A stretch of 64,000 nucleotides of DNA. It comes from Escherichia phage vB_Eco_OMNI12. The notes under the pieces are model-generated. The model saw only the letters and a program-made list of their open reading frames with translations. It did not search any database and was not told the origin of the DNA. Made by a program: the position numbers and the translations under genes. Where the stretch lies: sequence record OL362041.1; one strand, given 5' to 3'. Shown one piece after another: positions 34,799-35,732 of the stretch. The first letter of the stretch is position 1, and every line of letters starts with the position of its first letter.

Positions 34799-34885
34799 TT
34801 TATTCTCCTTTGTTTGTGTAAGATAATACTATCACAAAGGAACCATACTGTAAACAACTTTATGCAATCTTTGGAAAATAAAAAA

Positions 34886-34903
34886 GGACTCCCGAAGGAG
34901 TCC
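34886..34903 (-). terminator. terminator hairpin downstream of the 30.9-like ORF
   Basis: GGACTCC-CGAA-GGAGTCC; on minus transcript UUCG loop then U-run. Confidence 0.6.
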
Positions 34904-34908
34904 TCAAC

Positions 34909-35127
34909 TTATGCTTTCTGCTTACCAAAACGAGAAGCATCATCTCGAAGAACCGCACGTGCTCGGCGCATGATCTTCTCAACAGTTTGATTGATACGAG
35001 AGTTCGACCCACGCTTGTAGCCAGCGCGTTTAGAATCACCAACTTTCTTTTCAACTGCTTTCTTTGCTTTAGCTTGTTTTGCCATTATAAATTCTCTTTT
35101 AAATGAAAATGCAGGACTTATTGGCAT
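34909..35127 (-). CDS. small basic protein (30.9-like position); true start may be the internal Met (MAKQAKAKK)
   Basis: 72 aa Lys/Arg-rich ORF followed by UUCG-loop terminator hairpin. Confidence 0.45.
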   Translation of the reverse strand: MPISPAFSFKREFIMAKQAKAKKAVEKKVGDSKRAGYKRGSNSRINQTVEKIMRRARAVLRDDASRFGKQKA

Positions 35128-35402
35128 TGCCTGCGCAAGCCCTCAAGGGGAACATAGGTTTTTTGATATTTAACGACCAGGATAACCATAAACCCGTCAT
35201 CATACCTTATAGCTCTTATCTGTTGCACACCGTTAGCTTAAAGGTTCCGGGTTCGATTTCTCGAGGATAAGATATATACTGATGGATATATAGGCCTTGA
35301 GGCGTACTCCCGATTGGCCATCACCTCGGGGTAGCATGCACTTGCCGCTATAAGAATAACATTCAAGAGGTACACCGTAAAACTGCCGGGGTCTTAAAAC
35401 TA

Positions 35403-35422
35403 TAATGATTCGCAAATCATTA
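35403..35422. promoter_or_regulatory. perfect 8-4-8 palindrome TAATGATT-CGCA-AATCATTA, candidate protein-binding site
   Basis: Read directly; located in 355-bp non-coding island. Confidence 0.35.
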
Positions 35423-35483
35423 ATCAGACAGTTCGACGGCTCCTCGTTTTAACTTCACACTAAGGCAGTGACTCTCCAATAAA

Positions 35484-35732
35484 TTACTTCAGTGTTACCA
35501 CAAAGTGACGAACTGCTTTTCGTGCAGCAGAAGCCAGAGGCTTAGCATATTTAAGTTCATCTTTTTCCTGAAGCTCAGCAGCTAATGCAGTTTGAGCAGG
35601 ATTCAGATGTTTGAAATAACGCAGGATTTCAAGAGCTTCGGCTTCAACATCAATAGATGCGCCATAGTTTTCGTGACCATTATTCCATGCGTTTCGTTGC
35701 AGTTCAAGAGCGTGTTGTAATTGTTTAATCAT
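35484..35732 (-). CDS. rIII: rIII lysis-inhibition accessory protein
   Basis: 82 aa; sequence MIKQLQHALELQRNAWNNGHENYGASIDVEAEALE recognised as T4 rIII; position next to gene 31. Confidence 0.8.
   Translation of the reverse strand: MIKQLQHALELQRNAWNNGHENYGASIDVEAEALEILRYFKHLNPAQTALAAELQEKDELKYAKPLASAARKAVRHFVVTLK

What the first reader, a model, noticed from the sequence alone, without database searches (positions are those of the whole stretch)
35128..35483. About 355-bp non-coding island between the 30.9-like ORF and rIII
The genome is otherwise tightly packed, but this stretch has no ORF with a credible RBS (only a 60-aa frame without SD). It contains a perfect 8-4-8 palindrome (35403..35422), a GCATGC palindrome and several potential stems. 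Candidate roles are a small structured RNA, a promoter cluster, or the decayed remnant of a mobile gene such as a homing endonuclease.
Basis: seen in the sequence. Interest (0 to 1): 0.5.

Follow-up and report, generated by a model that had tools for sequence, protein, structure and literature searches.

The report
New structured RNA in T-even phages
The apparently empty gap between the phage genes rIII and 30.9 holds a 135-base RNA gene with an intricate, evolutionarily conserved fold that about 400 T4-like phage genomes (but not T4 itself) share almost unchanged and that matches no known RNA family; beside it lies the decayed remnant of a known RNA decoy against a bacterial suicide toxin.

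Summary
The gap is real. With the true 30.9 start at 35088 it runs 35089-35483, and it has no credible ORF, tRNA or Rfam match. It is not junk. Window 35213-35347, read on the minus strand (the sense of rIII and 30.9), is a 135-nt element that is 80-100% identical across about 400 Tevenvirinae genomes from at least 10 genera. It always lies between rIII and 30.9, whereas the flanking genes are only 62-91% identical. T4, RB6 and RB69 lack it.

Twenty-three distinct variants support a fold of 42 base pairs, 22 of them with compensatory changes (99.3% of cells paired; 0 of 500 shuffles reach this). The fold has six helices, a three-way junction and a 6-bp kissing-loop contact. Forty-two G·U pairs that would be C·A on the other strand assign the RNA to the minus strand.

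Nothing similar turned up in E. coli genomes, plasmids or GTDB species genomes. The element does not match tRNA, T4 rnaC/rnaD or ToxI.

Just downstream of the rIII stop codon (35446-35477) lies a decayed copy of pseudo-ToxI, the phage mimic of the ToxIN antitoxin. Relatives carry near-intact copies there.

Function is unknown. My best guess is a processed, trans-acting accessory RNA, possibly for counter-defence. Cis-regulatory and ribozyme roles remain open.

The parts
35213..35347 (-). Core: a 135-nt conserved structured RNA. Nucleotide n of the RNA corresponds to window position 35348-n. The sequence runs 5'-CGGCAAGUGCAUGC...CAACAGAUAAGAG-3'.
   Evidence: The covariance model scores 167.7 bits here. 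The element is 80-100% identical in about 400 phage genomes. The fold has 42 pairs, 22 of them with compensatory changes. There is no Rfam, tRNA or tmRNA match.
35293..35346 (-). Domain 1. P1 pairs nt 2-4 with 53-55. The long hairpin P2 pairs nt 13-22 with 35-46, with A40 and C44 bulged. The joining strands AAGUGCAU and CUCAAG are nearly invariant.
   Evidence: In P2, 8 of 10 pairs show compensatory changes, and the stem is entirely rewritten in L173 and fHe-Yen9-01. P1 shows a C-G to U-A change.
35318..35323 (-). Kissing-loop strand 1: P2 loop nt 25-30 (YGAUGG).
   Evidence: It pairs with nt 63-68. All 22 sequences that cover this part of the RNA are Watson-Crick at every position, and 3 of 6 pairs covary (C-G/U-A 15:7; G-C/A-U/U-A 17:3:2; G-C/A-U 19:3).
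35273..35292 (-). Hairpin P3 (nt 56-62 paired with 69-75). Its 6-nt loop CCAUCR (nt 63-68, window 35280-35285) is kissing-loop strand 2.
   Evidence: Three P3 pairs show compensatory changes, and the U.G closing pair changes to C-G or U-A.
35214..35272 (-). Domain 2, a three-way junction. P4 pairs nt 76-82 with 128-134. P5 is a tetraloop hairpin (nt 84-95; loop mostly GAAA, also GUAA, UAAA, UAAU). P6 pairs nt 96-100 with 116-121 and carries a nearly invariant 15-nt loop GAMCCUUUAAGCUAA. The joining strand is GCAACA.
   Evidence: P4, P5 and P6 all show compensatory changes. In L173 the loop segment CCUUUAAG is replaced by a mini-hairpin.
35204..35358 (.). A 155-bp segment that is present here but absent from T4-type Tequatroviruses such as T4 and RB6. 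It comprises the core plus short A+U-rich flanks.
   Evidence: In blastn against RB6 the match breaks at 35203 and resumes at 35359, with 98% identity on both sides. See also the alignments. T4 itself has a 244-bp spacer and no covariance-model hit in it.
35446..35477 (-). A decayed single copy of pseudo-ToxI, the mimic of the 36-nt ToxI antitoxin repeat of the type III ToxIN system: GGAGAGUCACUGCCUUAGUGUGAAGUUAAAAC.
   Evidence: It aligns column by column with near-intact copies at the same place in VR5/VR20-type phages and with ToxI itself. On its own it is not significant (p=0.08; nhmmer E about 3). The orthologous RB6 copy reaches p<0.005, and the JD18, L135, L136 and L143 copies reach E=1e-4 to 1e-5.
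35394..35422 (-). An A+U-rich hairpin, UAAUGAUU-UGCG-AAUCAUUA, followed by UAGUUUUAA. It may be a weak terminator or a processing site.
   Evidence: It is conserved in Tequatrovirus and Mosigvirus spacers with changes only in the loop (UGCG, UGAG, UGUG), so covariation provides no test. The terminator scan does not call it.
35353..35381 (-). A weak promoter-like site: TTTACG, 17 nt, TATTCT. The predicted start falls at about nt 1-2 of the core.
   Evidence: Read from the sequence. It matches 8 of 12 positions, below the scan threshold. The -10 part lies in the inserted segment. It is not conserved in other genera, and in Moon and IT22 the core starts 11 nt after the rIII stop. This is inference only.
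35165..35210 (-). A conserved hairpin block: UAUGAUG..GGUUAUCC..CGUUAAAUAUC.AAAACC.
   Evidence: It is homologous to a block that lies upstream of the core in JD18, Muldoon, PEi20 and SonariX, but downstream of it in IT22 (72/80 identical), fHe-Yen9-01, EnC07 and this window.
35101..35150 (-). Two hairpins in front of gene 30.9: CCCCUUGAGGG (35140-35150) and GCAGG..CCUGC (35111-35134) followed by AUUUUCAUUU. After them come the ribosome-binding site and the ATG at 35088.
   Evidence: They are also conserved in phages that lack the core, so they belong to the 30.9 leader and not to the core.
35484..35732 (-). Upstream neighbour rIII, the lysis-inhibition accessory protein.
   Evidence: phrog_1457, E=4.7e-44.
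34909..35088 (-). Downstream neighbour 30.9 (59 aa, basic, function unknown), followed by a strong intrinsic terminator at 34884-34905.
   Evidence: phrog_1427, E=4.5e-32; terminator; start codon by comparison with T4.

Best explanation
Window 35213-35347 (minus strand) is a gene for a previously undescribed, elaborately folded 135-nt non-coding RNA.

**Shown**
- The RNA is in the sense orientation of rIII and 30.9.
- It lies inside their transcription unit, which ends at the terminator after 30.9.
- It folds into six helices with a three-way junction and a 6-bp kissing-loop contact.
- It is under much stronger purifying selection than its neighbouring genes.
- It is dispensable, since T4, RB6 and RB69 lack it.
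- It sits at different positions relative to neighbouring spacer blocks in different genera.

**Inferred**
- It is cut out of the rIII-30.9 transcript at its A+U-rich flanks, as T4 tRNAs and rnaC/rnaD are cut from polycistronic precursors.
- It acts in trans by binding a partner that is conserved across Enterobacterales hosts or across T-even phages.
- Because the spacer is also where T-even phages keep a ToxI mimic, the role I consider most likely is an accessory host-takeover or counter-defence function.
For: **A structured RNA on the minus strand**
- The consensus fold has 42 pairs. Of these, 22 show changes on both sides, 99.3% of cells form standard pairs, and 0 of 500 shuffles reach the observed values. 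Versions with partners slid by 1-3 columns collapse to 28-42% paired.
- The 42 G.U cells on the minus strand would be C.A mismatches on the plus strand (654 against 616 canonical cells out of 662).
- The kissing loop is 100% Watson-Crick, with three covarying pairs.

**Selection**
- The core is 80-100% identical where rIII is 70-84%, gp31 62-81% and 30.9 69-91%.
- Long unpaired stretches are invariant.
- G+C is 49% against 36.5% for the window.

**Distribution**
- 409 phage records match, 395 of them over at least 80% of the element's length. None carries an RNA annotation there: the listed records show either no feature or only 'hypothetical protein' calls. Every locus inspected has it between rIII and 30.9.
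- Further copies occur in IMG/VR and metagenome contigs, all of T-even size where the contig is long enough to tell.

**Part of the rIII-30.9 transcript**
- In Moon and IT22 the core begins 11 nt after the rIII stop.
- No promoter or terminator is called inside the gap, and the terminator lies after 30.9.

**Position-independent and accessory**
- Distance to the rIII stop ranges from 11 to 136 nt, and to the 30.9 start from 44 to 185 nt (from the coordinates).
- The same 80-nt block lies upstream of the core in JD18 and downstream of it in IT22 (72/80 identical).
- The core is absent from T4, RB6, RB69 and 10 of 16 rIII loci sampled from IMG/VR.

**Counter-defence neighbourhood**
- Single pseudo-ToxI copies lie in the same spacer. 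In Jiaodavirus/Marfavirus-type phages and in fHe-Yen9-01 they sit directly 5' of the core.
- ToxI-identical toxIN plasmids are common in E. coli, Salmonella and Klebsiella.
- Pseudo-ToxI is an established RNA counter-defence in phage phiTE (PMC3475682).
Against: - No expression, processing or binding data exist. The trans-acting and counter-defence parts are inference from context.
- The element has no promoter or terminator of its own, and it always lies upstream of 30.9 in the same orientation. That is equally what a cis-acting mRNA element would look like.
- The invariant-junction, covarying-stem pattern with a kissing loop is also typical of riboswitch aptamers and ribozymes.
- It is not a sequence mimic of any host RNA that could be found: nothing in 5,426 complete E. 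coli genomes, 72,556 plasmids, or a 20-mer scan of 185,579 species genomes.
- Its similarity to ToxI is not significant (p=0.02-0.2).
- RB69, which largely escapes ToxIN (PMC9391042), has neither the core nor pseudo-ToxI. Many phages have the core without pseudo-ToxI, and vice versa.
- Folded alone, the window's copy is not unusually stable (z=-1.3).
Confidence: 0.4

Rival explanations
1. A cis-acting mRNA element. It would be a ligand- or protein-sensing leader (riboswitch-like), a put-like processive antiterminator, or a stability element, controlling expression of 30.9 and downstream genes or the decay of rIII mRNA.
For: The element is always in the same orientation between rIII and 30.9 and has no promoter or terminator of its own. 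Covarying stems, invariant junctions and a kissing loop are typical of aptamers. A partner such as host RNA polymerase or a common metabolite would explain near-invariance across phages of different host genera. An element that acts on the transcribing polymerase would tolerate variable spacing.
Against: No expression platform is present. There is no terminator or anti-Shine-Dalgarno helix overlapping the 3' strand of the fold, and 44-185 nt of unrelated, rearranged sequence separate it from the 30.9 start. The 30.9 leader hairpins and ribosome-binding site are conserved with or without the core. T4, RB6 and RB69 keep rIII and 30.9 without it.
Confidence: 0.25
2. A new self-cleaving ribozyme or other RNA-processing module. 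It would cut the polycistronic transcript at its own boundary, defining the 3' end of rIII mRNA (or of an upstream pseudo-ToxI unit) and the 5' end of 30.9 mRNA.
For: Conservation boundaries are sharp and the flanks are unconstrained and A+U-rich. The fold is compact, with tertiary contacts and invariant junction nucleotides. In JD18-type phages and fHe-Yen9-01 the element directly follows a pseudo-ToxI unit, which needs a defined 3' end. From my own background knowledge, not checked here: many small ribozyme classes occur in phage genomes.
Against: No known ribozyme family is matched even at E<=10. At 135 nt the element is larger than most self-cleavers. Nothing in the sequence identifies a cleavage site. 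This rival cannot be tested by computation.
Confidence: 0.1
3. The core is itself an elaborated ToxI derivative: a single-copy, scaffolded decoy that binds and neutralises ToxN-family endoribonucleases.
For: It lies in the pseudo-ToxI locus, contiguous with a pseudo-ToxI unit in several genera. A GAAA(A)U ToxN-type site is present at the junction in JD18-, SonariX- and PEi20-type phages, and fHe-Yen9-01 has UAAAAU there. nhmmer extends the ToxI alignment from the repeat into the core's 5' end (CAAGUG-CAUGCUACC against CAGGUGAUUUGCUACC). The P6 loop ACCUUUAAG equals ToxI nt 13-21.
Against: Similarity between core and ToxI is not significant against shuffles (p=0.018-0.21). The ToxI-like GCUAC is paired differently in the core (P2). 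L173 replaces the CCUUUAAG segment. The core occurs without any ToxI unit in Moon, Kosakonia 305, UFV01, IT22, EnC07 and Muldoon. Pseudo-ToxI copies in unrelated phages have no core. No core-like RNA lies next to toxN on plasmids.
Confidence: 0.08
4. A DNA-level feature, such as a promoter cluster, replication or recombination site, or homing-endonuclease target, or the decayed remnant of a protein gene.
For: Several GenBank records annotate 'hypothetical proteins' over it. The region is a presence/absence hotspot with alternative inserts.
Against: The strand-asymmetric G.U/C.A pattern requires RNA. Every frame carries stop codons in nearly all variants. Length differences between variants are not all multiples of three. 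No promoter is called. Changes in stems are compensatory.
Confidence: 0.03

Closest known systems
Pseudo-ToxI of Pectobacterium phage phiTE (the RNA mimic of the type III antitoxin ToxI; Blower et al. 2012, PMC3475682)
   Same: It is a phage-encoded, unannotated, sense-strand non-coding sequence in an intergenic spacer. The T-even spacer carries a true homologue: VR20-type AGGUGAUUCGCUACCUUAAGUGCGGCUAGAAAA is 91% identical to the annotated phiTE ncRNA. It shares phiTE's U9C/A25G compensatory pair, the 2-U variant and the extra 3' A (PMC3475682). The window keeps a decayed copy at 35446-35477.
   Different: The 135-nt core is not this. It has no significant similarity to ToxI, no repeats and a different fold. 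The T-even copies are single units, not 1.5 repeats that can expand. Unlike phiTE's, the intact-looking T-even copies retain C27 and U28. The window's copy has lost most determinants.
T4 stable RNAs processed from polycistronic transcripts (tRNAs; rnaC/species 1 and rnaD/species 2)
   Same: They are G+C-rich RNA genes of 75-140 nt with no promoter or terminator of their own, embedded in an early transcription unit. They vary in presence among T-even phages. rnaC and rnaD are likewise of unknown function.
   Different: There is no sequence or structure relationship: the best covariance-model score on the T4 tRNA/rnaC/rnaD region is 8.4 bits, and ARAGORN finds nothing. The genomic locus is different. 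There is no CCA-type 3' end.
Riboswitch aptamers organised by loop-loop contacts (for example purine and lysine riboswitches)
   Same: They share multi-helix junctions, covarying stems, near-invariant joining strands and a Watson-Crick kissing loop that locks two hairpins together.
   Different: No Rfam riboswitch is matched. No adjoining expression platform is present. The distance and sequence content up to the next gene vary. The kissing hairpins are neighbouring hairpins and not two arms of the same junction.
Mobile regulatory cassettes of T4-type genomes (PeSLs, promoter-early stem-loops; Arbiol, Comeau and Krisch 2010). Cited from memory and not read here.
   Same: They are short non-coding cassettes that shuffle between intergenic positions in plastic regions of T-even genomes.
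   Different: As I recall them, PeSLs are about 50-70 bp units made of a promoter plus a single stem-loop. This element is 135 nt, has six helices plus a tertiary contact, and no promoter is called.

Membership tests
Any Rfam 15 family (riboswitches, ribozymes, sRNAs, tRNA-like and others) | A covariance-model score at or above the family's gathering threshold, or at least E<=10 in a small search space | tested here: not met
   There were no matches at gathering thresholds over 64 kb. Nothing fell inside the gap at E<=10 over 1 kb or over 171 nt.
tRNA / tmRNA | A cloverleaf with anticodon arm, or a tmRNA fold | tested here: not met
   ARAGORN finds 0 genes in the window. The GGTTCGATT seen on the plus strand is not conserved (TCC and TCT variants) and forms part of P5/P6 on the other strand.
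ToxI / pseudo-ToxI, tested on the 135-nt core | Significant sequence similarity to the 36-nt ToxI unit | tested here: not met
   Smith-Waterman against 1000 shuffles gives p=0.018-0.21. The best ungapped match is 9 nt.
ToxI / pseudo-ToxI, tested on the 135-nt core | The ToxI pseudoknot pairings (nt 2-4 with 13-15; 9-11 with 23-25) and the C27/U28 contact bases | tested here: not met
   The ToxI-like GCUAC segment pairs with nt 41-46 in the covariation-supported P2. No C27/U28 equivalent can be placed.
ToxI / pseudo-ToxI, tested on the remnant at 35446-35477 | Homology to the ToxI unit | tested here: inconclusive
   On its own it gives p=0.08 and nhmmer E about 3. It is positionally orthologous to significant copies: RB6 at p<0.005, and VR5/VR20 at E=6e-5 to 2e-4.
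ToxI / pseudo-ToxI, tested on the remnant at 35446-35477 | A complete unit with intact pseudoknot pairs and the C27/U28 bases needed for antitoxic activity (PMC3475682) | tested here: not met
   The window reads ..GUGUGAAGUUAAAAC where ToxI reads ..GUGCAGCUAGAAAUUC. The 9-25 pair and the C27/U28 context are lost. VR20-type relatives keep them.
ToxI / pseudo-ToxI | Neutralises ToxN in vivo | not testable with these tools
   This needs a ToxN toxicity-rescue or plating assay.
T4 rnaC / rnaD stable RNAs | Sequence or structure homology | tested here: not met
   cmsearch with filters off on the T4 tRNA/rnaC/rnaD region gives a best score of 8.4 bits (E=0.17), and that hit is not on rnaC or rnaD.
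Riboswitch | An aptamer directly coupled to an expression platform (a terminator, or a helix sequestering the ribosome-binding site) of the downstream gene | tested here: not met
   No terminator follows the core. A spacer of 44-185 nt with rearranged content separates it from 30.9.
Riboswitch | Specific ligand binding | not testable with these tools
   This needs in-line probing or ITC.
Self-cleaving ribozyme | Site-specific self-scission | not testable with these tools
   No known class is matched. Catalysis needs an in vitro assay.
Protein-coding gene or pseudogene (for example a homing-endonuclease remnant) | A reading frame conserved among homologues, with codon-like substitution | tested here: not met
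   At least one stop codon is present in every frame in nearly all of the 22 full-length variants. Lengths of 132, 135, 136 and 144 nt occur. Stem changes are compensatory.

The most novel reading that the evidence does not exclude
The 135-nt RNA founds a new functional RNA class in a textbook phage group. It would be either an RNA-only counter-defence factor that disables a host immunity protein through a new fold (not by sequence mimicry), or a new ribozyme or ligand-sensing RNA. It went unnoticed because the reference phage T4 has deleted it. Under this reading the rIII-30.9 spacer is an 'RNA anti-defence island' that also carries ToxI mimics.
Probability: 0.3. Interest if true: 0.85.

Novelty: categorically new. 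Interest (0 to 1): 0.7.

Why it matters
T-even phages are among the best-studied genomes in biology, yet this RNA carries no RNA annotation in any of the roughly 400 public records that hold it; the records shown list either no feature or only "hypothetical protein" calls. It is also absent from Rfam 15. The likely reason is that T4 itself lacks it.

It is the most conserved segment of its locus. Its fold, with a junction and a kissing loop, is of the complexity usually seen in riboswitches, ribozymes or specific RNA-protein complexes, so a defined molecular function is likely and can be tested directly. Natural deletion variants exist, and there are model phages that carry the element (JS98, VR7, JD18).

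The same spacer holds ToxI mimics, ranging from near-intact (VR20, TG1, JD18) to decayed (T4 and this window). Similar single ToxI-like units occur in unrelated phage families. This suggests that RNA mimicry of type III antitoxins, known experimentally only from phiTE, is widespread. That bears on why ToxIN restricts some T-even phages and not others.

In practical terms, the spurious "hypothetical protein" calls over the element should be replaced by an ncRNA feature.

Tried and rejected
1. **tRNA-like element on the plus strand.** This was prompted by GGTTCGATT. ARAGORN was negative, the motif is not conserved, and the wobble asymmetry puts the RNA on the other strand.
2. **Known Rfam family.** Three searches found nothing in the gap. 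The Atu_C8 and Phe_leader hits at 34870-34953 are just the 30.9 terminator.
3. **Host-derived sequence or mimic.** There was no match in E. coli genomes, only chance 30-nt matches in plasmids, and no match for a 20-mer scanned across the GTDB species genomes. Two metagenome 20-mer hits (L164, L165) were chance matches in unrelated sequence.
4. **Homology of the core to ToxI.** This was my own lead, and it is not significant.
5. **Relationship to T4 rnaC/rnaD.** None was found.
6. **P2 tip helix.** The RNAalifold helix pairing nt 23-25 with 30-32 was replaced by the better-supported kissing loop.
7. **A pseudoknot between AAGG (nt 50-53) and CCUU (nt 104-107).** No covariation supports it, and P1 is supported instead.
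8. **GNRA tetraloop-receptor docking of P5.** The loop is mostly GAAA or GUAA, but UAAA and UAAU variants occur, so I make no such claim.
9. **A link to ToxIN resistance in RB69.** RB69 has neither the core nor pseudo-ToxI.
10. **Literature.** Searches for an earlier description of the RNA or of T-even pseudo-ToxI found none. The supplement of the virus-wide structured-RNA survey PMC10690425 is not held, so prior listing there cannot be excluded.
11. **Escherichia phage UPEC06 (Vequintavirinae).** Its partial blastn match gave no covariance-model hit.
Full report
**1. Setting and observation**

The window is a T4-like (Tequatrovirus) phage genome. Its genes cd, 31.2, 31.1, 31, rIII, 30.9 and 30.8 lie on the minus strand. 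rIII is 35484-35732. gp30.9 starts at MAKQ, as in T4 and RB6, so its ATG is at 35088. The non-coding stretch is therefore 35089-35483, or 395 bp.

- The only frames in the gap are weak TTG or GTG starts.
- The 8-4-8 palindrome is exactly at 35403-35422.
- GCATGC is at 35334-35339.
- A single perfect 8-bp hairpin is not remarkable: the window holds 23, against about 10.7 in Markov-1 random sequence.
- ARAGORN finds no tRNA.
- Rfam 15 matches nothing in the gap, even at E<=10 in a 171-nt search.
- No sigma-70-type promoter or intrinsic terminator is called inside the gap. A strong terminator follows 30.9 at 34884-34905.

**2. A conserved core**

blastn of the gap against 50,697 phage records showed a mosaic. 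The flanks match T4-type phages. T4-type genomes lack window 35204-35358, while identity on both sides is 98%. T4 itself has a 244-bp spacer and no hit to the model.

The central 135 nt (35213-35347) are present in 409 records, 395 of them over at least 80% of the length. The hosts named in those records are Escherichia, Shigella, Klebsiella, Enterobacter, Citrobacter, Serratia, Yersinia, Salmonella, Raoultella, Edwardsiella, Erwinia and Kosakonia. The genera represented among the loci I inspected are Tequatrovirus, Mosigvirus, Jiaodavirus, Marfavirus, Karamvirus, Kanagawavirus, Moonvirus, Muldoonvirus, Roskildevirus and Tegunavirus.

In every locus inspected the element lies between rIII and 30.9, in the same orientation. 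None of the records inspected or listed annotates it as RNA. Several place "hypothetical proteins" over it.

It is the most conserved part of the locus. The core is 80-100% identical to the window's copy, where rIII is 70-84%, gp31 62-81% and 30.9 69-91%. Its G+C content is 49%, against 36.5% for the window.

**3. It is an RNA, on the minus strand, with a complex fold**

- RNAalifold on 17 distinct minus-strand sequences gave 39 pairs, 20 with compensatory changes.
- On that alignment 98.8% of cells are paired. No shuffle out of 500 reaches any of the five measures. Sliding the partners by 1-3 columns drops pairing to 28-43%.
- Of 662 cells, 654 are canonical on the minus strand, including 42 G.U pairs. 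On the plus strand only 616 are canonical, and those 42 become C.A mismatches. The RNA is therefore in the sense of rIII and 30.9.
- A covariance model (R1), together with pattern scans of IMG/VR and metagenomes, gave 44 copies and 23 distinct sequences. Divergent variants such as L173 and fHe-Yen9-01 rewrite the whole P2 stem while preserving pairing.
- A scan for extra covarying column pairs revealed a 6-bp loop-loop contact between the P2 loop (nt 25-30, YGAUGG) and the P3 loop (nt 63-68, CCAUCR). It is Watson-Crick in all 22 sequences that cover it. Three of its six pairs covary: C-G/U-A 15:7, G-C/A-U/U-A 17:3:2 and G-C/A-U 19:3.

The final model has 42 pairs, 22 of them with compensatory changes, and 99.3% of cells paired. 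Its parts, in RNA numbering, are:
- P1: nt 2-4 with 53-55.
- P2: nt 13-22 with 35-46.
- P3: nt 56-62 with 69-75.
- The P2-P3 kissing loop described above.
- A three-way junction of P4 (76-82 with 128-134), P5 (84-95) and P6 (96-100 with 116-121).

The joining strands and the 15-nt P6 loop are nearly invariant. No reading frame is open through the element in the variants. Folded alone, the window's copy is not unusually stable, with z=-1.3 on the minus strand. The support therefore comes from comparison between phages, not from thermodynamics.

**4. Expression context (inferred)**

In Moon and IT22 the core begins 11 nt after the rIII stop codon, which leaves no room for a promoter. It must be transcribed with rIII.

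Its flanks are A+U-rich and unconstrained, and no U-tract terminator follows. T4 tRNAs and rnaC/rnaD give a precedent in this family for stable RNAs cut from polycistronic early transcripts.

In the Tequatrovirus and Mosigvirus lineage, a weak promoter-like site (TTTACG, 17 nt, TATTCT; 8 of 12 matches) would start transcription at core nt 1-2. It falls below the scan threshold and is not conserved elsewhere.

**5. Cassette-like behaviour**

The core lies 11-136 nt after the rIII stop and 44-185 nt before the 30.9 start.

An 80-nt block that is upstream of the core in JD18 (and in Muldoon, PEi20 and SonariX) is 72/80 identical to a block downstream of the core in IT22. The same arrangement appears, more weakly, in fHe-Yen9-01, EnC07 and this window.

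JS98 (Mosigvirus) has a core 100% identical to this Tequatrovirus, although its rIII is only 84% identical.

Ten of 16 rIII loci sampled from IMG/VR lack the core. RB69 and some others carry an unrelated insert of about 50 nt at the same point.

The element is thus dispensable, is exchanged between phages, and does not depend on its exact neighbours.

**6. The ToxI connection**

The sequence next to the core in JD18 resembled, from my memory, the ToxI antitoxin RNA of the type III toxin-antitoxin abortive-infection system ToxIN. I checked that recollection.
- The recalled 36-nt repeat occurs 5.5 times upstream of toxN on pECA1039.
- It is also 100% identical in small plasmids of E. coli, Salmonella and Klebsiella. 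In all, 75 plasmid records match.

On the sense strand of the rIII-30.9 spacer, T-even phages carry one ToxI-like unit.
- **JD18 and PWKp18 types:** GGUGAUUUGCUACC-AAAGUGCAGCUAGAAAAU, directly 5' of the core (nhmmer E about 1e-4).
- **VR5, VR20 and TG1 types:** AGGUGAUUCGCUACCUU(A)AGUGCGGCUAGAAAA, just after the rIII stop. This form is 91% identical to the annotated pseudo-ToxI ncRNA of phiTE. It shares phiTE's U9C/A25G compensatory pair, its 2-U form and its extra A. Unlike phiTE's, it keeps the C27/U28 bases that phiTE lost and that are needed for antitoxic activity (PMC3475682).
- **fHe-Yen9-01:** a fairly good copy contiguous with the core.
- **T4 and RB6:** a degenerate copy.
- **JS98 and RB69:** the unit is deleted.
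- **This window:** 35446-35477 aligns column for column with these copies but is more decayed. It is not significant on its own.

Near-exact single ToxI units also occur, unannotated, in unrelated phages: Salmonella phage 7-11, the Kuravirus XT18, the Sugarlandvirus pzk-kv7 (between tRNA genes) and the tRNA cluster of Erwinia phage IT22.

Rfam gave no hit even on the genuine toxI array. That explains why the Rfam searches did not flag these units.

**7. Is the core a ToxI derivative?**

Some points are suggestive. nhmmer runs from the JD18-type repeat into the core's first 15 nt. The P6 loop contains ToxI's ACCUUUAAG.

The similarity is nevertheless not significant against shuffles, at p=0.018-0.21. 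The ToxI-like bases are paired differently in the core. L173 replaces the loop segment. The core and pseudo-ToxI each occur without the other. I therefore do not file the core under ToxI.

It is also not a sequence mimic of any host RNA I could find, and it is unrelated to T4 rnaC/rnaD.

RB69, which largely escapes ToxIN through its TifA protein (PMC9391042, PMC10853763), has neither element. No correlation with ToxIN resistance is available.

**8. Interpretation**

Established with high confidence (about 0.95): this is a real, previously undescribed, sense-strand structured RNA under strong selection. It is accessory and is exchanged among T-even phages.

Its function is not established. I favour, at about 0.4, a processed trans-acting RNA that binds a partner conserved across Enterobacterales hosts or T-even phages, plausibly in counter-defence or host takeover. 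The reasons are:
- its independence from its neighbours;
- the family precedent for processed stable RNAs;
- its presence/absence pattern, which is typical of accessory loci;
- its location in a spacer that also holds an RNA counter-defence element.

The rivals are a cis-acting element (riboswitch-like, antitermination or stability; 0.25), a new self-cleaving or processing ribozyme (0.1), a ToxN decoy specifically (0.08), and a DNA-level or protein-gene remnant (0.03). The fold's architecture would suit any of the RNA-based readings.

**9. Novelty**

All membership tests against known families failed. Literature searches found no description of the RNA or of pseudo-ToxI in T-even phages. I cannot exclude that it is listed in the large automated motif catalogue PMC10690425, because that paper's supplement is not held.

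I rate the core as a new RNA family with no assignable kind. The pseudo-ToxI remnant is a new, decayed member of a known kind.

Noticed in passing
L136 1747-1782 (VR20-type), L135, L143 (Yersinia TG1-type), L001 about 1641-1672 (JD18): Near-intact single pseudo-ToxI units lie in the rIII-30.9 spacer of about 90 or more T-even phages. They keep C27/U28 and the compensatory U9C/A25G pair and are unannotated. They could be functional ToxN decoys. I found no report of this in the papers searched.
   Followed up: partly
L150 701-733 (Salmonella phage 7-11), L152 (Kuravirus XT18), L151 (Klebsiella pzk-kv7, two copies), L153 701-732 (Erwinia IT22 tRNA cluster): Almost exact single ToxI units (AGGUGAUUUGCUACCUUAAGUGCAGCUAGAAA) occur in intergenic or tRNA-cluster positions of unrelated phage families. 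Only phiTE's copy is annotated. ToxI mimicry may be widespread among phages of enterobacteria.
   Followed up: partly
window 35088 versus 35127: The mechanical ORF for 30.9 starts at 35127 (72 aa). Homologues in T4 and RB6 start at MAKQ, which puts the ATG at 35088 (59 aa here). The non-coding gap is therefore about 40 bp longer than the finding states.
   Followed up: yes
L132 about 1875-1925, L136, and L179 6455-6505 (RB69): An alternative insert of about 50 nt (ACUAUCACGCGUCAGAAAAAGGUUAUCUGUCUAAGUCGUGGUUGG) occupies the exact site where the core sits in this window. The site is a swap point for small non-coding cassettes.
   Followed up: no
window 35165-35210 and the homologous blocks in L001, L125, L127 and L128: A conserved hairpin block (loop ..UGGUUAUCC.., then CGUUAAAUAUC.AAAACC) is shared across T-even genera, T4 included. 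It lies on either side of the core in different genera. Its function is unknown.
   Followed up: partly
L147 (IMGVR_UViG_3300045988_074297), 1-2344: A 97-kb viral contig has a truncated rIII-like fragment embedded in a cluster of 12 tRNA genes. The first tRNA after it begins with the same GGAGAUU that starts the T4-type decayed pseudo-ToxI.
   Followed up: no
window 34870-34953 (-): Sub-threshold Rfam hits (Atu_C8 at 31 bits; Phe_leader) are just the intrinsic terminator after 30.9. They are not sRNA genes.
   Followed up: yes
GenBank records such as MZ234027 and OQ067376 over the core: Up to three overlapping 'hypothetical protein' CDSs are annotated across the RNA in some records. They are almost certainly spurious, since no frame is conserved.
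   Followed up: partly
L131 1708-1905 (pECA1039 toxI): An Rfam 15 search at E<=1 gives no hit on the genuine ToxI repeat array. Type III antitoxin RNAs therefore appear not to be detectable with this library.
   Followed up: yes
core nt 79/131 and nt 106/109 (window 35269/35217 and 35242/35239): In the Muldoon/L175 lineage, the P4 pair changes from U79-A131 to C-G together with U106C and A109G in the P6 loop. This may reflect a tertiary contact between the P6 loop and P4, but it rests on a single lineage.
   Followed up: no
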